Shown: piece by piece, positions 1-17,709 of the stretch
Layout: each line of letters starts with the position of its first letter
How positions within the stretch are numbered: position 1 is the first letter of the stretch
Source of the DNA: a virus
Lineage: Duplodnaviria; Caudoviricetes
DNA: 64,000 nt
Reading direction: 5' to 3' (one strand)
Virus record (IMG/VR): IMGVR_UViG_3300010388_000214
Location: 31,626 to 95,625 of that record
Translations under genes and position numbers: made by a program
The notes under the pieces: generated by a model
Seen by the model: only the letters and a program-made list of their open reading frames with translations
The model's database searches: none
Told to the model about the DNA's origin: nothing

Positions 1-34
1 ATAATCAAAGTATAATTCAAGACTCTCTAAGTCA

Positions 35-127
35 TCACGCATTGTTATCATATTCTTGCTCTCCCTCGCATAGTGGACAAAAGGGGGTACAGTCAAAGCT
101 ACCCTCATGGTTAGGACATTCAATCAT
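35..127 (-). CDS. 30-aa Cys-rich protein (MIECPNH...CTPFCPLC)
   Basis: ATG at 127 directly follows the upstream stop; C-terminal part of track ORF 35..238. Confidence 0.55.
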   Translation of the reverse strand: MIECPNHEGSFDCTPFCPLCEGEQEYDNNA

Positions 128-128
128 G

Positions 129-296
129 TTAACCAGTATATCTTGAATCAATGGATAAAGCAACATCGACACGGTCAAGGTCATAAGCTTCTTCAAGCTC
201 TTCCCAATCGGCAGCAGTCCAATGGCTAGTCTTAACAATAACTACCTTATCAGCACTACCGTAGTTACCGTCGCTAGCAAAGTAATGACTACTCAT
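129..296 (-). CDS. 55-aa acidic hypothetical protein (MSSHYFASDGNYGSA...)
   Basis: manually translated; abuts both neighbours. Confidence 0.6.
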   Translation of the reverse strand: MSSHYFASDGNYGSADKVVIVKTSHWTAADWEELEEAYDLDRVDVALSIDSRYTG

Positions 297-468
297 CTTC
301 TTCTTCATCCTCTAGATATTGGTCAACCTCAATAGAGTAGACACCGTCATATGACGTGCCGTCTTCCTGATAGTCATACTCCCAAGCCAAAGCTTCTGCT
401 TCTTCGGGGGTATCAGCTTCAACATCAAAAGAGTAATCAACTCTCATATTAACTAAGAACTTAGCCAT
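289..468 (-). CDS. 59-aa very acidic protein (MAKFLVNMRVDYSFDVEADTPEEAEA...)
   Basis: manually translated; SD-like AAGGA upstream; TAATG coupling. Confidence 0.65.
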   Translation of the reverse strand: MAKFLVNMRVDYSFDVEADTPEEAEALAWEYDYQEDGTSYDGVYSIEVDQYLEDEEEDE

Positions 469-575
469 TAGTATCCTTTCAATATGTCTGACAGTTGGTC
501 TAACTGTTCTGGGGTTAGTCTTCCGATTACACTTGTGTCGATTGCGTTAGCAAACATATCCTGTATTTCGTTCAT
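468..575 (-). CDS. 35-aa leaderless hypothetical protein
   Basis: ATG 6 nt downstream of the -10 CATACT. Confidence 0.55.
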   Translation of the reverse strand: MNEIQDMFANAIDTSVIGRLTPEQLDQLSDILKGY

Positions 576-581
576 ATAATA

Positions 582-610
582 AGTATGACTTAGATAAAAT
601 GGTTTGTCAA
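582..610 (-). promoter_or_regulatory. sigmaA-type promoter TTGACA-N17-CATACT
   Basis: consensus hexamers with 17-bp spacer; same class at 1799-1827, 2410-2439, 3421-3449. Confidence 0.8.
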
Positions 611-701
611 TATTTCTGGGCGTTTTGTTACCCTATCGTAATCATTGCACAATGACTATATATATAGTTATAAACATTGGCGGCCCCCGATCCTGGTGGG
701 G

Positions 702-728
702 TAGGCAGTTTATTCTCATGCCTAGGAG
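702..728 (-). ncRNA. small H-type pseudoknot motif, copy 1
   Basis: CUC-CUAGGCAU-GAG-AAU-AAAC-UGCCUA, just 3' of the 736 stop. Confidence 0.65.
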
Positions 729-735
729 TGTCCGC

Positions 736-1755
736 CTATGCGGTAGCTAGTTGAACAACCTTGAGCAAACGGTTCTTCTCTGCGTTGATAGCAGGGTCAA
801 AGCCAGATGCGGAAGCCAAGACTGATTCGTTGTTACCCTTGCGACCAGAACGGTACCAGTCGAGACGCTCAGTCATTGCGTTGAACGCACCCCAAGCGGT
901 TCCACTAATCATGTGGTTGAACTCACCCTGATAGATGTCCTCAATCAGTTCCAGCTTGGTCTGCCACTTGGACAGAGAACCCTTAGAGTCTTTCTCTGGC
1001 ATGGGGTAAGCAAGAGCAACGATTTCGTCAAACTTAGCCTTAGAGATTTCAGTCTCAATCATAGCCTTTGCCATGATGTCGAATTCATCCATGTATGCGT
1101 TAGCAAGTCCCAAAGCCTCACGAGCTGCGATAACTTTACCCTCAGCGGTCTGAGTGTGACGAATCTTGAACGACTGCTTGATGTTACGGTTGCGACCTAC
1201 ACCACCACCGATAGCAAGGTTCAGAGTGTTAGCACAGACAACACGCACAGGGGTGATGCTTGCCTGAATCGCTACAGAACCGTCATGAGATGTGTTGACG
1301 AGGAGGTAGGTGTTTACCTTGTCACCAACACCGTTAGGGTCTAGGACAGTCTCACGCTCAAGAGCAATGGAACCAAACACCTGACGACCACCCTTGATAG
1401 AACCAGCAGTCTCCCAGCGACCACCACCGTCTAGGATGTTGTCACCAAATGAGAACAGGTCTTCATTCTGGAGGGTACGGTAACGCTCACCAACAACGCC
1501 AAGCACGTCAGTCTGCTTCTTGTCGAATGGGTTAGAGCGAGCAACAAAATAGTTAGTCTTGTCTGAGGTAAAGTTCTCAGGCATAGGGATTTCTTCAAGA
1601 CGAACATTCCAGTTGTCCAAGTGTGCCAACTCTAGCATCTTGGTTGTGTTTACTTCTTCCTCGAACACAGTACCCAAACCATGCCAAGCTGGTTCACGGA
1701 AAGAGGCAAAGGTAGTCTTGCCAGTTACTGAGTCGATTTCTAGTTCGTGTGCCAT
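736..1755 (-). CDS. DUF932-family (TIGR03299-like) phage/plasmid protein
   Basis: MAHELE...REPAWHGLG, ETAGSIKGGRQVF, SHDGS, TPVRVVCANTL and IRHT motifs. Confidence 0.85.
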   Translation of the reverse strand: MAHELEIDSVTGKTTFASFREPAWHGLGTVFEEEVNTTKMLELAHLDNWNVRLEEIPMPENFTSDKTNYFVARSNPFDKKQTDVLGVVGERYRTLQNEDLFSFGDNILDGGGRWETAGSIKGGRQVFGSIALERETVLDPNGVGDKVNTYLLVNTSHDGSVAIQASITPVRVVCANTLNLAIGGGVGRNRNIKQSFKIRHTQTAEGKVIAAREALGLANAYMDEFDIMAKAMIETEISKAKFDEIVALAYPMPEKDSKGSLSKWQTKLELIEDIYQGEFNHMISGTAWGAFNAMTERLDWYRSGRKGNNESVLASASGFDPAINAEKNRLLKVVQLATA

Positions 1756-1798
1756 GTGGCTACTTCTTTCTTTAGGGGATGAATTGCTTACTTATATA

Positions 1799-1827
1799 AG
1801 TATGACAGTGTTTAGCTATCTTGTCAA
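1799..1827 (-). promoter_or_regulatory. sigmaA-type promoter TTGACA-N17-CATACT
   Basis: consensus hexamers upstream of the DUF932 gene. Confidence 0.8.
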
Positions 1828-1897
1828 CCATCTGGGGGGTATTTTCTTACCTTCGTAATTAAACTGTTACATTCGGGGGGCCGCAGGGTATTTAGAG

Positions 1898-1927
1898 TGA
1901 GCAGTTTCAGATCAATGCTCAGGACCT
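1898..1927 (-). ncRNA. small pseudoknot motif, copy 2
   Basis: AGGUC-CUGAGCAUU-GAUCU-G-AAAC-UGCUCA. Confidence 0.65.
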
Positions 1928-1988
1928 GGCCTAGGGGAAAGAAAGGAATAAGAACCCTAGGCCATCATCGGTAACCCCTTACCGAGAA

Positions 1989-2183
1989 TTAAAACAAACG
2001 TTGCTTGTGGTCCAGAAAGGTACCAGTAATGAATGCACGTACATGTGCGTAAGCTTCTGCACGTCCTTCTTCATATGCAGCTTCGAAAGGACATCCGTCG
2101 GTCTCTTGTTCATTCATCGACTCAACAGCTTCGTCTTCCTTCTTGTGGAAGTACTGCAGCAGCTCAGATACTAGTTCATCCAT
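1989..2183 (-). CDS. hypothetical protein, 64 aa
   Basis: ORF track; TAATG coupling. Confidence 0.7.
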   Translation of the reverse strand: MDELVSELLQYFHKKEDEAVESMNEQETDGCPFEAAYEEGRAEAYAHVRAFITGTFLDHKQRLF

Positions 2184-2380
2184 TAGTTGCCTACGAATTC
2201 AACTACAGTGTCAGCTTCTTGGTACTCGACCATGTCAAGCTTTTCTTCAGTGATATCAAACTCAGGCCAGTAATCAGCATCCTCGTTACCCTGCGAGACG
2301 TGAAAGATTGCAAGAGCTTCGTCTTCACTGTCCGCCTGCACGGAATAGGTATTGCCAGATGTTATAAAGTATGTAGCCAT
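2183..2380 (-). CDS. acidic hypothetical protein (start MATYFIT)
   Basis: SD-like GAAGG before the ATG at 2380; A.s.eEA motif similar to 289..468. Confidence 0.7.
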   Translation of the reverse strand: MATYFITSGNTYSVQADSEDEALAIFHVSQGNEDADYWPEFDITEEKLDMVEYQEADTVVEFVGN

Positions 2381-2409
2381 GTTGGCCTTCTTTCTTTGTC
2401 GGTAATACA

Positions 2410-2439
2410 AGTATGACAGCTGTGGGGGGTATTTGTCAA
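2410..2439 (-). promoter_or_regulatory. sigmaA-type promoter TTGACA-N18-CATACT
   Basis: consensus hexamers; GTAAC-N6-GTTAC immediately upstream. Confidence 0.75.
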
Positions 2440-2520
2440 CCTTCGTAACCTAAACGTTACATTTGCGAGGGGCCGCCCAAATCCCCTAGCCATCACGACA
2501 AACGATCAACTAGGGGTGGG

Positions 2521-2584
2521 TGAGCAGTTTTTATTCCACCAGCATACTCAGGCTAATGAGGCAGTTTTATCTCATACCCAGGAG
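2521..2584 (-). ncRNA. tandem pseudoknot motifs, copies 3 and 4
   Basis: CUC-CUGGGUAU-GAG-AUA-AAAC-UGCCU, then AUUAGC-CUGAGUAU-GCUGGU-GGAAUAA-AAAC-UGCUCA. Confidence 0.65.
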
Positions 2585-2590
2585 TAATTA

Positions 2591-3034
2591 CTAGAGTAGG
2601 TCAATCACCGTGTTGTAGGTAGTTGCCGAGACTTCCTCCTGAGAGGTCATCTTCAGTACCTTTAGGTTACGCTCTAGCAGGGACTTGCGTGTCGTATACT
2701 CACGACCAAAGTGCTGTGACTCATTTGGCTTGCTTGGTTCTTTGGGTGCTTCTGGCAAACCAAGCAGGTCAGAGTTCACGCTAACACGAACAGAGTTACC
2801 GTATTCATTTGATACACGGATAGGCGAGTCATACTCGTTGCCAATTAGTTCTGGCTTACCAAGTGCTTTGATAACAGCCTCAACAACTGCTTTCTGGTGG
2901 TCTGCCTTAGCCTTGCGGTACTCCTCCATTTGAGCAGGGTACACAGCCAAGTCAGCCTCAATCTTAGCAAGAGATGCCTCAATGTCAGCAATGAGAGATG
3001 CGGTAGGGATTTTCACAGAGAGTGAACGAGCCAT
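2591..3034 (-). CDS. hypothetical actinophage protein, 147 aa
   Basis: ORF track; helical, phage-like composition. Confidence 0.8.
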   Translation of the reverse strand: MARSLSVKIPTASLIADIEASLAKIEADLAVYPAQMEEYRKAKADHQKAVVEAVIKALGKPELIGNEYDSPIRVSNEYGNSVRVSVNSDLLGLPEAPKEPSKPNESQHFGREYTTRKSLLERNLKVLKMTSQEEVSATTYNTVIDLL

Positions 3035-3073
3035 AATTGTTTATCTACTTTCTTATTTACTAGGGGTTAGTGT

Positions 3074-3106
3074 CTGGGTAGTTTAGACAGACATACCCAG
3101 GTCTGT
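3074..3106 (-). ncRNA. small pseudoknot motif, copy 5
   Basis: ACAGAC-CUGGGUAU-GUCUGU-CU-AAAC-UACCCAG. Confidence 0.7.
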
Positions 3107-3124
3107 TTTCCTTTTGGAAAGTGT

Positions 3125-3194
3125 GTAGGTGGGGGTCTGGCTAGACACGGCTACCTCTCGGAAACCAGACATTACGGGTAGCGAACCCACCTAC
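3125..3194 (-). ncRNA. intergenic structured RNA: pseudoknot closed by a 9-bp stem
   Basis: GTAGGTGGG/CCCACCTAC encloses the crossing helices GCTACC/GGTAGC and GTCTGG/CCAGAC. Confidence 0.55.
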
Positions 3195-3201
3195 GGTTAG
3201 A

Positions 3202-3348
3202 CTACTTTACGGTAGTCCAGCGAGTGTCACCGTTTGCGAGGGTGAGACGAACACGGCTTGAGCCAGTTGCGTTCTTCACGATTTCCTCAACGATACCCGA
3301 TACACCAGATGCCTGAGTGGTAAAGGTTTCTCCGATTACTGCGTTCAT
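3202..3348 (-). CDS. 48-aa beta-rich protein (MNAVIGETFTTQASGVSG...RWTTVK)
   Basis: manually translated; SD AAGGA; promoter at 3421-3449. Confidence 0.7.
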   Translation of the reverse strand: MNAVIGETFTTQASGVSGIVEEIVKNATGSSRVRLTLANGDTRWTTVK

Positions 3349-3420
3349 TTTATTACTGCTTCCTTGTAGTGAGCCAACTTTGACTGATTTGTTTTACCAA
3401 GTCGTTTACTTGATATATCT

Positions 3421-3449
3421 AGTATGACATCAAATCTGGGGGGTGTCAA
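3421..3449 (-). promoter_or_regulatory. sigmaA-type promoter TTGACA-N17-CATACT
   Basis: consensus hexamers. Confidence 0.8.
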
Positions 3450-3515
3450 GCCTTATCGTAACCTTTTTTATAACAGGTTGGTAACGGTCGGGGGCCGATC
3501 CCCGTTGGGGGTAGC

Positions 3516-4076
3516 CTATGAAGCACTACCCCGAACGATGACCCAGATAAGAGCTTGAGCAGTACGAGGTGTCAGACCAAACTCTCCTGCAACTTTACGC
3601 ACAGCACGAGACAGTTCTACATACTGAGACTGAGAGGGGGAGTCAGTTCCCAGGTTAGCTGCACGACACATCCAAATGTCAATAACTACAGCGTCTTTGT
3701 CACCTGCAATAGCACGAGCGAATGCATTAGTCTTTGGACCTTTGAGAGCGTCAAACCCTAAGTCAATGCTAGTCTGTGCCATTTTGTAGTTGTTAGGCAA
3801 ACCCTTTACCTCATGACCAAGCGAGAATGCAATAGCCTTAGAGATATTACTAGCCCAACGCTCACGAGGTGAGAATGCAGAGACAACGCTTGCACCAACT
3901 TCAAGTGTGGTGTTTAGGTTGCGAGCAACTTCTTCTGCAACTTCTTCTGCATCCCGATACCAGACACTAGCCTCTTCGACCTGACCGAGAGTAGCATTCA
4001 TGAGTAGGTTGCGATACATGCCAGTGTAGTTCTTGATACGGGTGGTTACTTCTGGCTTTACGATTGTGGTTGTCAT
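3516..4076 (-). CDS. phage protein, possibly HhH/DNA-glycosylase-like fold
   Basis: WY..A, SP...W..N, GPKT.AF, VVID.W and QA.IW motifs; the fold is a guess. Confidence 0.6.
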   Translation of the reverse strand: MTTTIVKPEVTTRIKNYTGMYRNLLMNATLGQVEEASVWYRDAEEVAEEVARNLNTTLEVGASVVSAFSPRERWASNISKAIAFSLGHEVKGLPNNYKMAQTSIDLGFDALKGPKTNAFARAIAGDKDAVVIDIWMCRAANLGTDSPSQSQYVELSRAVRKVAGEFGLTPRTAQALIWVIVRGSAS

Positions 4077-4219
4077 GGGGTGTTCCTTTCCTTATATAAA
4101 TAACTATACAGTTACCCACGGACATTTGCAAGGGTATTCTTAACTATCTTAATAACGAATAGGTAACGGATCAGCGGCCCCCGTGGGGGTAGAGAAGTCA
4201 ATCCCCACCCCCAATGGTA

Positions 4220-4702
4220 TTACCAAGAAGCCTGATATATAAATGAAATATCGCTTGTGATAGTTTTGTCTAGCAGAGTCTTCAACTCTTTCTTAGTACG
4301 CTTGAGGTCTTCCCAGTACCACTTGTCTATTTCAGTAGAACCAAAGAAGAAACCAGAAACAGGCTCTAACTCAGACGTATCTTTAGTTGCGATAACATCT
4401 GTAACAGTAAACAGCAACTCTTCCAACCTCTCACGGCTAACATAAACAGGCTGGCACTCGTCTACACCGTTAGCACAGTTAGTGATAAACCAGTTATGGA
4501 TTTGGTTAGACTTACGCCAATAGATAGCAGTCTCAGTTACAGACAGGCCAACGCTTTCGTCTGAGGCTAGGCTGTTGAGGTTTGAGGCGGTAAGAACTTC
4601 GAGATAGTCTCGGTTCTTCTCACGCTGATAGTCACCATCTACAACCTTGTAGTTGTTAGCAGGAATAAACTTACGGACTTCCAGGTACATATCGAGACCC
4701 AT
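4220..4702 (-). CDS. conserved phage protein (MGLDMYL...YWRK.NQIHNWF...YQASW type)
   Basis: recognisable widespread phage motifs; SD AAGGAG. Confidence 0.8.
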   Translation of the reverse strand: MGLDMYLEVRKFIPANNYKVVDGDYQREKNRDYLEVLTASNLNSLASDESVGLSVTETAIYWRKSNQIHNWFITNCANGVDECQPVYVSRERLEELLFTVTDVIATKDTSELEPVSGFFFGSTEIDKWYWEDLKRTKKELKTLLDKTITSDISFIYQASW

Positions 4703-11480: not shown

Positions 11481-11551
11481 CACCCCACCGAGGAATTGAA
11501 CCCCGTCCAACAGGTTTGGAATCTGTCATGCTGCCGTAACACTTGTGAGAT
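11481..11551 (-). tRNA. tRNA-Trp (CCA); 3' CCA not encoded
   Basis: acceptor ATCTCAC/GTGGGGT, anticodon loop TTCCAAA, T-arm CGGGG-TTCAATT-CCTCG, discriminator G. Confidence 0.85.

Positions 11552-14968: not shown

Positions 14969-17709
<2,741 letters not shown>

What the first reader, a model, noticed from the sequence alone, without database searches (positions are those of the whole stretch)
702..3106. Five copies of a covarying ~30-nt RNA pseudoknot in early-region spacers
On the transcribed (-) strand, five intergenic elements (702-728, 1898-1927, 2521-2557, 2558-2584, 3074-3106) share the form stem / loop CURRGYAU / stem' / 1-7 nt / AAAC / URCYY. Stem sequences differ (CUC:GAG, AGGUC:GAUCU, AUUAGC:GCUGGU, ACAGAC:GUCUGU) yet always pair. 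The loop-tail helix also covaries (UAGGCA:UGCCUA, UGAGCA:UGCUCA, CUGGGUA:UACCCAG). Invariant CU, AU and AAAC suggest tertiary contacts or a binding site. Copies 1 and 4 start within 10 nt of a stop codon and copy 3 is in tandem with copy 4. Possible roles (inference): nuclease-blocking 3' cap, processing or antitermination signal, or a decoy analogous to pseudo-ToxI RNAs that neutralise type III toxin-antitoxin defence. I cannot match it to a family I know.
Basis: partly seen in the sequence, partly recalled or inferred. Interest (0 to 1): 0.88.

Follow-up and report, generated by a model that had tools for sequence, protein, structure and literature searches.

The report
Widespread phage mRNA-tail pseudoknot
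The five short RNA pseudoknots are real and belong to a large RNA family we could not find described, which sits just after stop codons in viruses of many microbes, often right before an RNA cutting site, so it most likely caps and protects the tail of the message.

Summary
All five copies exist at the stated places on the minus strand. A sixth lies elsewhere in the same 95.6-kb virus genome. The form is P1 (3-7 bp, closing C-G) / C / UNRNYA / one non-G base / P1' / ...AAAC / URNYN(A).

Evidence that it is real:
- A sequence-only anchor finds 240 copies on the gene-sense strand and 0 on the other strand in 80 related viral loci.
- Both helices covary.
- A covariance model built only from relatives returns exactly the five window copies as its top hits.

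It is not limited to these phages. One exact pattern gives 233 well-formed copies in viral contigs and in genomes labelled as many bacterial phyla and a methanogen. They follow 125 unrelated protein clusters.

Context: most copies start 4-12 nt after a stop codon. Many end 1-13 nt before a tRNA 5' end or a hammerhead cleavage site, or abut a DUF2800 RNA.

Best reading (about 0.5): a compact 3'-terminal pseudoknot that shields the upstream mRNA from 3'-to-5' exonucleases after processing or termination. No 3' ends were mapped.

Recoding, riboswitch, ToxI-like repeat and canonical terminator readings fail tests. There is no Rfam match, and seven text searches found no description.

The parts
702..728 (-). 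Pseudoknot copy 1: CUC / c / UAGGCA / u / GAG / AAUAAAC / UGCCUA. It starts 7 nt after the TAG of the DUF932 gene.
   Evidence: model R1 28.7 bits, E 1.1e-5
1898..1928 (-). Pseudoknot copy 2: CAGGUC / c / UGAGCA / uu / GAUCUG / AAAC / UGCUCA. It lies 60 nt after the TAA of ORF 1989..2183, behind two hairpins.
   Evidence: R1 25.8 bits, E 6.6e-5
2521..2558 (-). Pseudoknot copy 3, in tandem directly after copy 4: CAUUAGC / c / UGAGUA / u / GCUGGUG / GAAUAAAAAC / UGCUCA. It has a long P1 and L3.
   Evidence: R1 14.4 bits, E 0.082. Contigs from runs X23 and X24 show relatives without this copy.
2559..2584 (-). Pseudoknot copy 4: CUC / c / UGGGUA / u / GAG / AUAAAAC / UGCCU. It starts 6 nt after the TAG (followed by an in-frame TAA) of ORF 2591..3034.
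   Evidence: R1 32.2 bits, E 1.3e-6
3074..3106 (-). Pseudoknot copy 5: ACAGAC / c / UGGGUA / u / GUCUGU / CUAAAC / UACCCAG. It sits between two cistrons, 95 nt after the TAG of ORF 3202..3348 and 39 nt before the ATG at 3034.
   Evidence: R1 18.0 bits, E 0.0088
736..1755 (-). Upstream gene of copy 1: 339-aa DUF932 protein. In relatives the order is DUF932 gene, pseudoknot, tRNA-Asp.
   Evidence: Pfam PF06067, E 1e-49
2591..3034 (-). 147-aa ORF flanked by copy 5 upstream and copies 4+3 downstream. It has no Pfam family. Relatives of it also precede the motif in other viral contigs.
   Evidence: upstream-protein cluster of 12
1989..2183 (-). 64-aa ORF, the last gene before copy 2.
3202..3348 (-). 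48-aa ORF, the last gene before the structured spacer and copy 5.
582..610 (-). Promoter-like site TTGACA-17-CATACT downstream of copy 1. Equivalent sites lie at 1799-1827, 2410-2439 and 3421-3449. Apart from copy 5, which lies between two cistrons, the copies (copy 1, copy 2, copies 4+3) sit at the end of one transcription unit, ahead of the next promoter.
   Evidence: consensus scan only

Best explanation
The element is a compact H-type RNA pseudoknot that forms the 3' untranslated tail of phage mRNAs. I propose it acts as a 3'-terminal cap. The transcript is cut or ended a few nucleotides downstream, by RNase P at an adjoining tRNA, by an adjoining hammerhead ribozyme, by termination at a U-tract, or by an unknown endonuclease. 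The upstream message then ends in the pseudoknot with only a short single-stranded tail. That should stall 3'-to-5' exonucleases and lengthen the life of that cistron.

Shown here: the pseudoknot pairing, its strand, its position after stop codons, its adjacency to cleavage sites, and its breadth.

Inferred:
- The conserved unpaired bases form base triples that make a small fold mechanically stiff. This would involve the loop-1 C, the AAAC end of loop 3, the closing C-G pair and the central G-C pairs of P2, as in luteovirus-type pseudoknots.
- RNA 3' ends really lie just behind it.
- It slows decay.
For: 1. It is a real RNA-level structure.
- A sequence-only anchor gives 240 copies on the sense strand and 0 on the antisense strand in 913 kb of 80 related loci. 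In those copies 229 of 240 have all 4 inner P2 pairs, and 240 of 240 have at least 3 P1 pairs.
- On 150 distinct copies, 85.0% of cells are paired against 71.6% in shuffles. The covariation score is 0.394 against 0.147, with 0 of 500 shuffles reaching it. Slid controls pair at 25-37%. P1 pair 5-18 has 83 double changes and 0 unpaired cells. P2 pair 11-29 has 20 double changes and 0 unpaired.

2. It is tied to the upstream gene's end.
- 162 of 210 family copies start 3-25 nt after a stop codon.
- In the broad sample most upstream ORFs end 4-12 nt before the motif, and almost none end closer.
- The upstream proteins fall into 125 clusters among 212, so the motif is not gene-specific.
- A convergent ORF follows in 35 of 228 broad copies. 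The genome's sixth copy also lies between convergent genes.

3. It sits just before RNA cleavage sites.
- 69 of 80 same-strand tRNAs in the family loci are preceded by the motif at 1-8 nt.
- In the broad sample 18 of 233 copies are followed by a same-strand tRNA (Asp, Leu, Arg, Ser, Glu) at 3-13 nt. None of the 26 tRNAs found nearby is on the opposite strand.
- A tRNA lies 7 nt after the motif in a contig labelled Segatella.
- Three hammerheads have their cleavage site 5, 7 and 12 nt after the motif.
- In L093 the order gene, pseudoknot, hammerhead occurs twice in a row. Both ribozymes match Rfam Hammerhead_3, at 50.5 bits (above the gathering score of 48.5) and 41.2 bits (below it, E 1.4e-7).
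- The DUF2800 RNA starts at the next nucleotide in L112 and L138. It also matched in L180 and L186, where adjacency was read only.
- 45 of 233 copies have a U-tract within 9 nt.

4. Separate cleavers beside it argue that it is the thing left behind, not the cutter.

5. It occurs in contigs labelled as many bacterial phyla and Methanobrevibacter. This fits a physical barrier better than a host-specific protein site.
Against: - No RNA 3' end was observed. Only assembled contigs of RNA libraries could be laid. Some of them run straight across copies 1 and 2 (X20 records 8 and 10).
- Nearest-neighbour energies of the single helices are modest: P1 -0.9 to -7.1 and P2 -2.3 to -8.1 kcal/mol. A roadblock therefore needs tertiary contacts that I did not test.
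- Several copies are followed by an ordinary hairpin (copy 3; relatives). The pseudoknot would then not be the terminal structure.
- Many copies lie 21-50 nt before the next start codon with no known cleavage site.
- The tRNA-Asp adjacency in the family is one inherited arrangement, not 67 independent events.
- Strict conservation of unpaired C and AAAC could equally mean recognition by a factor.
- In a group of closely related Saccharibacteria loci, a 14-codon ORF ends inside the motif.
Confidence: 0.5

Rival explanations
1. It is a binding site for a factor: a phage or host RNA-binding protein, the terminating ribosome, or RNA polymerase. The factor would control translation termination or re-initiation, mRNA fate or transcription read-through. 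The pseudoknot would be a recognition shape rather than a passive barrier.
For: - Unpaired C8 and A22-C25 are invariant, and G12, G27 and C28 are nearly invariant, in 150 distinct copies.
- The second P1 pair is only U-A or A-U.
- There is a sharp lower limit of about 4 nt between stop codon and motif. This places it at the mRNA entrance of a ribosome sitting on the stop codon.
- Copies are clustered in one 6-10 kb multi-promoter region in 5 of 5 complete relatives.
Against: - The motif occurs with the same sequence in contigs labelled from many bacterial phyla and from a methanogen. A single protein partner is therefore unlikely unless it is universal.
- No protein family recurs beside it: 125 upstream and 163 downstream clusters.
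- The 4-nt limit is equally expected if the fold must simply stay closed while the ORF is translated.
Confidence: 0.2
2. It is a folding insulator or processing helper. A fast-folding local structure would keep the upstream coding RNA, or scanning ribosomes, from disturbing the folding and cleavage of the structured RNA that follows (tRNA, hammerhead, DUF2800 RNA).
For: The motif directly abuts tRNAs, hammerheads and the DUF2800 RNA.
Against: Most copies have no structured RNA behind them. In the broad sample 18 of 233 are followed by a tRNA within 13 nt and 3 of 233 by a hammerhead. None of the five window copies is.
Confidence: 0.1
3. It is a decoy or sponge. Stable pseudoknot-ended decay fragments would accumulate early in infection and titrate a host nuclease or defence protein. 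This is the reader's pseudo-ToxI idea in wider form, by analogy with flavivirus sfRNA.
For: - There are several copies per genome, concentrated in the presumed early region.
- Tandem copies exist: window copies 4+3, L149 and L022.
Against: - P1 differs in every copy, and the motif is spread across very different hosts.
- There are no ToxI-like arrays of identical 34-45 nt units. No toxin gene was recognised next to the tandem pair in L149, where the flanking proteins have no Pfam match.
- Nothing here shows that fragments accumulate.
Confidence: 0.08
4. It is an unconventional transcription terminator. The P2 helix, braced by P1, would play the part of the terminator hairpin in front of a U-tract.
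For: - 45 of 233 broad copies have at least 4 U within 9 nt after P2.
- The Streptomyces phage relatives have a GC hairpin terminator at the same position after the stop codon.
- No canonical terminator-like site was found on the minus strand of window 1-4400.
Against: - 188 of 233 copies have no U-tract, and neither does any of the five window copies.
- Copies directly before a tRNA, a ribozyme or the next cistron must be read through.
Confidence: 0.05
5. It is a very small self-cleaving ribozyme or a ligand-binding aptamer of preQ1-I-like topology.
For: - The fold has the same order of parts as preQ1-I: short P1, loop, A-rich tail, then a 3' strand pairing to the loop.
- It keeps company with hammerheads, as new ribozyme classes do.
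- Conserved C residues lie at the helix junction.
Against: - No Rfam family matches at E<=10 in either of the two short stretches searched that way, window 500-4300 and L093 7150-7720.
- It lies behind stop codons and before unrelated downstream features, not in 5' leaders of one gene class.
- The single base corresponding to the ligand-pairing loop is variable, U, A or C.
- A separate ribozyme or RNase P site stands 1-13 nt behind it, which a self-cleaver would not need.
Confidence: 0.05
6. It is a recoding signal: stop-codon read-through or -1 frameshifting stimulated by a pseudoknot 5-8 nt downstream.
For: The spacing of 4-12 nt from the stop codon is that of recoding pseudoknots.
Against: Among 260 distinct copies with a stop 0-25 nt upstream:
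- The median read-through extension is 8 codons, and 161 of 260 meet another stop within 12 codons.
- The median -1 frame extension is 6 codons.
- Only 9 in-frame slippery heptamers occur in the last six codons.
Window copy 4 follows TAG TAA, and the sixth copy (outside the window) also follows TAG TAA.
Confidence: 0.02

Closest known systems
MALAT1 / MEN-beta 3' triple helix with RNase P processing at a downstream tRNA-like structure (recalled knowledge; the search listing and abstracts describe the triplex protecting the transcript)
   Same: A compact A-rich tertiary structure lies immediately upstream of a tRNA-shaped RNase P site. Cleavage therefore leaves the structure as a protective 3' end without a poly(A) tail.
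   Different: The MALAT1 element is a U-rich stem-loop clamping a 3' A-tract in a long major-groove triplex, found in vertebrate nuclei. Here the element is a 27-38 nt H-type pseudoknot in phage mRNAs. The downstream partner is a real tRNA, a hammerhead, or nothing recognisable. Protection is not shown.
Luteovirus-type compact frameshifting pseudoknots such as beet western yellows virus (recalled knowledge)
   Same: Both have a short S1, a loop 1 that begins with C, a bulged junction base, and an A-rich loop 3 ending next to S2. The overall size is about 28 nt, and the conserved unpaired bases could form triples.
   Different: S2 here is 5-6 bp rather than 3 bp. There is no slippery site and no extended frame. 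The element sits after the stop codon, not before it.
preQ1-I riboswitch aptamer (Rfam RF00522; topology recalled; the abstract of PMC11625349 was seen in the listing)
   Same: It is an H-type pseudoknot of about 30 nt with an A-rich 3' tail followed by a strand that pairs with the hairpin loop.
   Different: No covariance-model match was found. P2 is longer. The ligand-pairing loop is reduced to one variable base. The position is 3' of genes rather than in leaders of queuosine genes.
ToxI and other type III antitoxin RNAs
   Same: They are short pseudoknotted RNA units with a conserved A-rich single-stranded stretch, found in phage-related contexts, sometimes in tandem.
   Different: ToxI is an array of near-identical 34-45 nt repeats directly upstream of its toxin gene. 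These copies are dispersed, differ in P1, follow unrelated genes and have no recognised toxin partner.
Hammerhead ribozymes flanking single genes in prophages (Perreault et al. 2011, PMC3088659; passages read)
   Same: The genomic setting is the same: long phage transcripts apparently cut into gene-length mRNAs. L093 shows this arrangement.
   Different: The passages returned by a term search of that paper (the whole text was not read) do not mention a conserved pseudoknot on the upstream side of the cut. That pseudoknot is the new part.
Bacterial 3' stabilisers: intrinsic-terminator hairpins and REP elements (recalled knowledge)
   Same: They occupy the same position behind the stop codon. 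The Streptomyces phage relatives carry a GC hairpin exactly there.
   Different: This element is a pseudoknot with a conserved sequence rather than a simple GC-rich hairpin, and most copies lack a U-tract.

Membership tests
preQ1-I riboswitch (RF00522) | Match to the family covariance model | tested here: not met
   No match at E<=10 in window 500-4300 or in L093 7150-7720. No match at gathering score in the whole window.
preQ1-I riboswitch (RF00522) | Location in the 5' leader of queuosine synthesis or transport genes, with the ribosome-binding site or a terminator in the switch | tested here: not met
   Copies start 3-25 nt after stop codons (162 of 210). Upstream proteins fall into 125 clusters and downstream proteins into 163 clusters.
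preQ1-I riboswitch (RF00522) | Conserved ligand-pairing cytosine in the loop between P2 and P1' | tested here: not met
   That loop is a single base that is U, A or C.
Type III antitoxin RNA (ToxI-like) | Tandem array of near-identical 34-45 nt repeats | tested here: not met
   The five window copies are dispersed over 2.4 kb with different P1 and P2. Only pairs are ever adjacent.
Type III antitoxin RNA (ToxI-like) | Toxin endoribonuclease gene directly downstream | tested here: inconclusive
   Window neighbours are DUF932, DUF7178 or have no Pfam family. The protein after the L149 tandem pair has no Pfam match. No dedicated ToxN profile search of all neighbours was run.
-1 frameshift or read-through stimulatory pseudoknot | Slippery heptamer 5-8 nt upstream, or an open frame continuing through and beyond the pseudoknot | tested here: not met
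   There are 9 slippery heptamers in 260 copies. The median read-through extension is 8 codons, and 161 of 260 are closed within 12 codons.
Intrinsic (Rho-independent) terminator | GC-rich hairpin immediately followed by a U-tract | tested here: not met
   No terminator-like site was found on the minus strand of window 1-4400. A U-tract lies within 9 nt in only 45 of 233 broad copies.
Small self-cleaving ribozymes (hammerhead, pistol, twister and others in Rfam) | Match to a ribozyme model, or a catalytic core | tested here: not met
   The motif has no Rfam match. The hammerheads found are separate elements downstream of it. Self-cleavage itself is not testable here.
ENE-type 3' triple helix with RNase P processing | tRNA-shaped RNase P substrate directly downstream | tested here: inconclusive
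   Met in 69 of 80 same-strand tRNAs of the family loci and in 18 of 233 broad copies. Not met for the five window copies.
ENE-type 3' triple helix with RNase P processing | U-rich internal loop clamping a 3' A-tract | tested here: not met
   There are no U-rich strands. The A-rich stretch is loop 3 of a pseudoknot.
Exoribonuclease-resistant RNA (xrRNA) | Ring-like fold that blocks a 5'-to-3' exonuclease, with a match to Rfam xrRNA models | tested here: not met
   No Rfam match was found. The context points to protection of the upstream RNA, not the downstream one. Resistance itself is not testable here.

The most novel reading that the evidence does not exclude
This is an apparently undescribed, nearly universal 'tail module' of prokaryotic viruses. 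It is a roughly 27-nt triplex pseudoknot which, paired with RNase P sites or self-cleaving ribozymes, lets phages of bacteria and archaea cut polycistronic transcripts into single messages with exonuclease-proof 3' ends. That would make it a prokaryotic counterpart of the MALAT1 triple helix. Possibly, the resistant fragments left over also act as sponges for host RNases or defence nucleases.
Probability: 0.35. Interest if true: 0.9.

Novelty: new variant of a known kind. Interest (0 to 1): 0.82.

Why it matters
If the reading holds, phages carry a tiny, portable and sequence-defined mRNA stabiliser that works in many bacteria and perhaps in archaea.
- It would give a purpose to the long-puzzling hammerheads that flank prophage genes, and to some phage tRNA placements.
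- It would add a 3'-to-5' counterpart to viral exonuclease-resistant RNAs.
- It would offer synthetic biology a roughly 30-nt 3' cap to combine with ribozyme insulators.

Even if the mechanism is wrong, a strongly covarying pseudoknot family with hundreds of members and no Rfam entry is worth curating and probing.

Tried and rejected
Rfam: at gathering score over the whole window, only a tRNA at 11481-11551 matched. At E<=10 over 500-4300, only a meaningless snoRNA-like match appeared.

DNA similarity to known phages: megablast found nothing. blastn found only weak coding similarity to 82 Streptomyces phages.

Streptomyces phage ends (Riptide L001, Yaboi L002): no copy by pattern or by model R1, whose best score was 7 bits. 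Their intergenic spacers carry a GC hairpin instead.

RNA-library contigs:
- Four runs were laid, all as assembled contigs, so no starts, ends or strand can be read.
- One contig of run X19 stops at 1899, one base inside the 3' end of copy 2. A contig of run X20 runs on to 1858, so I draw nothing from this.
- Shares of the stretch in RNA runs were small, 0.05-0.14.

Recoding was rejected. The canonical-terminator reading was rejected for the window.

Energy evaluation of single helices gives only modest values and cannot score a pseudoknot.

tRNA-like 3' end: 'CCA' is the commonest triplet after P2, in 21 of 163 family and 22 of 228 broad copies, but it is still a minority. I do not claim tRNA-like mimicry.

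Chance expectation for the exact pattern in the genome collection is about 49 hits spread over 15 gap sizes, by my own arithmetic assuming equal base frequencies. Consistent with this, 25 of 258 hits, mostly with odd gap sizes, had fewer than 3 P1 pairs. They were dropped before all later counts.

ORF-based counts use mechanical ORFs, not annotated genes.

Literature:
- Seven full-text searches found no description of the motif.
- I read passages of PMC5737381, PMC3088659, two 2026 bioRxiv preprints and PMC10690425.
The supplements of PMC5737381 (DUF2800 motif drawings) and PMC10690425 (10,006 candidate viral RNAs, one overlapping a tRNA-Asp) could contain this motif unnamed, and I could not check.

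Full report
**What is there.** On the minus strand of window 702-3106 there are five short elements of one form. Each has:
- a stem P1 of 3-7 bp that always closes with C-G;
- one unpaired C;
- six bases UNRNYA;
- one or two unpaired bases;
- the P1 return strand;
- an A-rich stretch ending in AAAC;
- five to seven bases that pair with the UNRNYA loop bases (P2).

This is an H-type pseudoknot.

A lax pattern found 6 hits on the minus strand and 0 on the plus strand of the window. In 100 shuffles the mean was 0.79 hits. One of the six (40145-40117) is probably chance.

The window is part of a 95,625-base virus record. A sixth copy lies outside the window at genome position 15300-15326 (+), 12 nt after the stop of an Hsp20 gene and facing a convergent ORF.

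**The setting in this phage.** All genes here run on the minus strand. Promoter-like sites TTGACA-17/18-CATACT recur at 3449, 2439, 1827 and 610, and a weaker TTGCAA-17-TATAGT site lies at 4131. No terminator-like hairpin with a U-tract was found on that strand.
- Copy 1 starts 7 nt after the stop of a DUF932 gene.
- Copy 4 starts 6 nt after a TAG TAA double stop.
- Copy 3 follows copy 4 directly.
- Copies 2 and 5 sit 60 and 95 nt behind a stop, after other hairpins.
- Copy 5 lies between two cistrons without a promoter.

The closest named relatives, by one protein at 53-56% identity, are Streptomyces phages of about 130 kb. Their spacers have the same layout but carry a GC hairpin where this phage has the pseudoknot. 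They have no copy of the motif.

**Relatives and covariation.** The DUF932 protein retrieved 80 IMG/VR loci at 73-92% identity.
- A pairing-based scan found 104 strict copies on the gene strand and 1 on the other. Loosening it showed that the base between P2 and P1' is U, A or C.
- To avoid circularity I then used an anchor that demands only the conserved letters and no pairing. It gave 240 hits on the sense strand and 0 on the antisense strand. In those hits, 229 of 240 had all four inner P2 pairs and 240 of 240 had at least three P1 pairs.
- On 150 of the 155 distinct sequences, 85.0% of cells pair against 71.6% in shuffles. The covariation score is 0.394 against 0.147, reached by 0 of 500 shuffles. 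Sliding the partners drops pairing to 25-37%.
- P1 pairs 5-18 and 4-19 show 83 and 43 double changes. P2 pairs 10-30, 11-29 and 12-28 show 17, 20 and 12.
- G-U pairs are frequent (for example 33 U-G at pair 13-27). All copies are on the sense strand. The structure therefore belongs to the RNA, or less likely to that single DNA strand.
- A covariance model made from these relatives alone finds exactly the five window copies as its best five hits.
- In five complete relatives of 112-119 kb there are 5-6 hits each. Four or five of them are clustered within some 6-10 kb around the DUF932 gene.

**It is far more widespread than one phage group.**
- An exact pattern of the two conserved halves gave at least 118 stretches in the species-genome collection and at least 119 in IMG/VR.
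- Of 258 hits, 233 have at least three P1 pairs. I dropped the 25 others, mostly with odd spacer lengths, as chance.
- In the genome collection, 84 of 119 hits have the same 5-nt spacer.
- The record titles include Saccharibacteria, Anaerolineae, Bacteroidota, Clostridia, Lactobacillaceae isolates, Nocardia, Polynucleobacter, Cyanobacteria and Methanobrevibacter. Bins may contain viral contigs, so these labels are hosts at best.
- The proteins encoded just upstream fall into 125 clusters among 212. The largest are DUF932 (16), a small protein (14), Hsp20-like (13) and the family of the window's 147-aa ORF (12). The motif is therefore not tied to a gene.

**Context that points to function.**
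- The motif follows stop codons. 162 of 210 family copies start 3-25 nt after one. In the broad sample most upstream ORFs end 4-12 nt before it, with a sharp lower limit near 4 nt.
- It precedes RNA cleavage sites. 69 of 80 same-strand tRNAs in the family loci have the motif 1-8 nt upstream. This is largely one inherited DUF932, motif, tRNA-Asp arrangement, with separate Trp and Glu cases.
- In the broad sample 18 of 233 copies have a same-strand tRNA of five different kinds 3-13 nt downstream. None of the 26 nearby tRNAs is on the other strand. Rfam also shows a tRNA 7 nt behind the motif in L137.
- Three hammerheads have their cleavage site 5, 7 and 12 nt behind the motif.
- In L093 the order gene, motif, hammerhead, gene, motif, hammerhead, gene is plain. 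The two ribozymes score 50.5 and 41.2 bits against a gathering score of 48.5.
- The DUF2800 RNA begins at the very next base in L112 and L138. It also matched in L180 and L186, where adjacency was read only.
- 45 of 233 copies are followed by a U-tract. 35 of 228 are followed by a convergent ORF.

**Most likely mechanism.** What these contexts share is that the RNA is cut or ended a few bases behind the motif. The upstream message then finishes with stop codon, 4-12 nt, pseudoknot, and a 1-13 nt tail. I therefore read the motif as a 3' cap against 3'-to-5' exonucleases.

Three further points are inference from the known behaviour of H-type pseudoknots, not tested here:
- The lower limit of about 4 nt fits a fold that must stay closed while a ribosome sits on the stop codon.
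- The fixed 6-bp P2 with a one-base loop 1 is the geometry in which one nucleotide can span the deep groove.
- The invariant C, the AAAC, the closing C-G and the near-invariant central G-C pairs of P2 could form the base triples that make such small folds stiff.

The nearest functional analogy is the MALAT1 triple helix left by RNase P cleavage. Perreault et al. proposed that hammerheads cut prophage transcripts into gene-length mRNAs (passages read). The pseudoknot would be the missing 3' protection of those products.

**Weak points.**
- I saw no RNA ends. The only expression data were contigs from RNA libraries, and some of them bridge copies 1 and 2.
- Helix energies are modest.
- Some copies are followed by a further hairpin or lie inside operons with no known cut.
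- Strict sequence conservation could mean a binding partner.
- In closely related Saccharibacteria loci, a 14-codon ORF ends inside the motif ahead of a conserved gene. This hints at other uses.

**Rivals.**
- Recoding fails: the median read-through is 8 codons and there are 9 slippery sites in 260 copies.
- A riboswitch or ribozyme reading has no model match, the wrong position, and a redundant cleaver next door.
- A ToxI-like decoy lacks identical repeat arrays, and no toxin partner was recognised.
- A terminator role could hold for the U-tract minority only.
- A factor-binding role remains open. A role as a folding insulator for downstream RNAs also remains open.

**Novelty.** There is no Rfam 15 match. 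Seven full-text searches gave no description. Supplements were closed and could hold it unnamed. I rate it a new RNA family. On the best reading, it is a new variant of a known kind of element, the mRNA 3' stabiliser.

Noticed in passing
window 676-690, 1875-1888, 2468-2480, 3494-3510, 4170-4185 (minus strand): A GC-rich box (GGGGGCCGCC, GCGGCCCCCC, GGCGGCCCC, CGGCCCCCG, GGGGGCCGC) follows each transcription-unit end and precedes the next promoter. Streptomyces phage Riptide has a GGCCGCCCCGGCC box at the same place in nearly every spacer. It may be a shared regulatory DNA site or a small hairpin.
   Followed up: partly
window 2443-2462, 1845-1864, 3455-3490, 625-640 (minus strand): A repeated GTAAC-N6-GTTAC / TTACGA(A/T)AGG motif lies just upstream of the -35 hexamer of the four TTGACA-17/18-CATACT promoters. 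It looks like an operator or UP-like site.
   Followed up: no
window 3107-3201 (minus strand): The 95-nt spacer before copy 5 folds into a long stem (GUAGGUGGG...CCCACCUAC) with inner hairpins. The energy is -30.5 kcal/mol with z -2.39, and 1 of 200 shuffles folds as well. It may be another structured RNA.
   Followed up: partly
L093 7150-7720 (minus strand): In a contig labelled Polynucleobacter, two consecutive units of gene, pseudoknot, type III hammerhead surround a 51-aa ORF.
   Followed up: yes
L112 5407-5592; L138 5051-5233; also L180, L186: The Rfam DUF2800 RNA (RF02960, 140-157 bits) starts at the nucleotide directly after the pseudoknot. The pseudoknot itself follows a 64-65-aa ORF. 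The true 5' border or function of the DUF2800 RNA may involve it.
   Followed up: partly
L105 3750-3835 (also L146, L198, L114, L083): In closely related Saccharibacteria loci (94% mean column identity among the four aligned), a Shine-Dalgarno-led 14-codon ORF (MSSDGEQWVGPEHD) ends with its stop codon inside loop 3 of the motif. This is 22 nt before a conserved 138-aa gene with no Pfam match. It may be a leader-peptide switch.
   Followed up: partly
window 2520-2563: A contig of RNA run X23 joins 2520 to 2563 and so lacks copy 3, and a contig of X24 starts at 2563 with loose letters before it that resemble the sequence found after copy 3 in the window. The tandem pair in this phage is therefore a recent duplication.
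   Followed up: no
first three bases after P2 in all copies: G is almost excluded at the first base after P2 (6 of 228). CCA is the commonest triplet (21 of 163 family, 22 of 228 broad copies).
   Followed up: partly
window 11481-11551 (minus strand): The window holds a single tRNA gene (34.2 bits). No pseudoknot copy was found upstream of it.
   Followed up: no
L022 4934-5125; L149 4178-4250: Other genomes carry arrays of two or three copies 23-100 nt apart within one spacer.
   Followed up: partly
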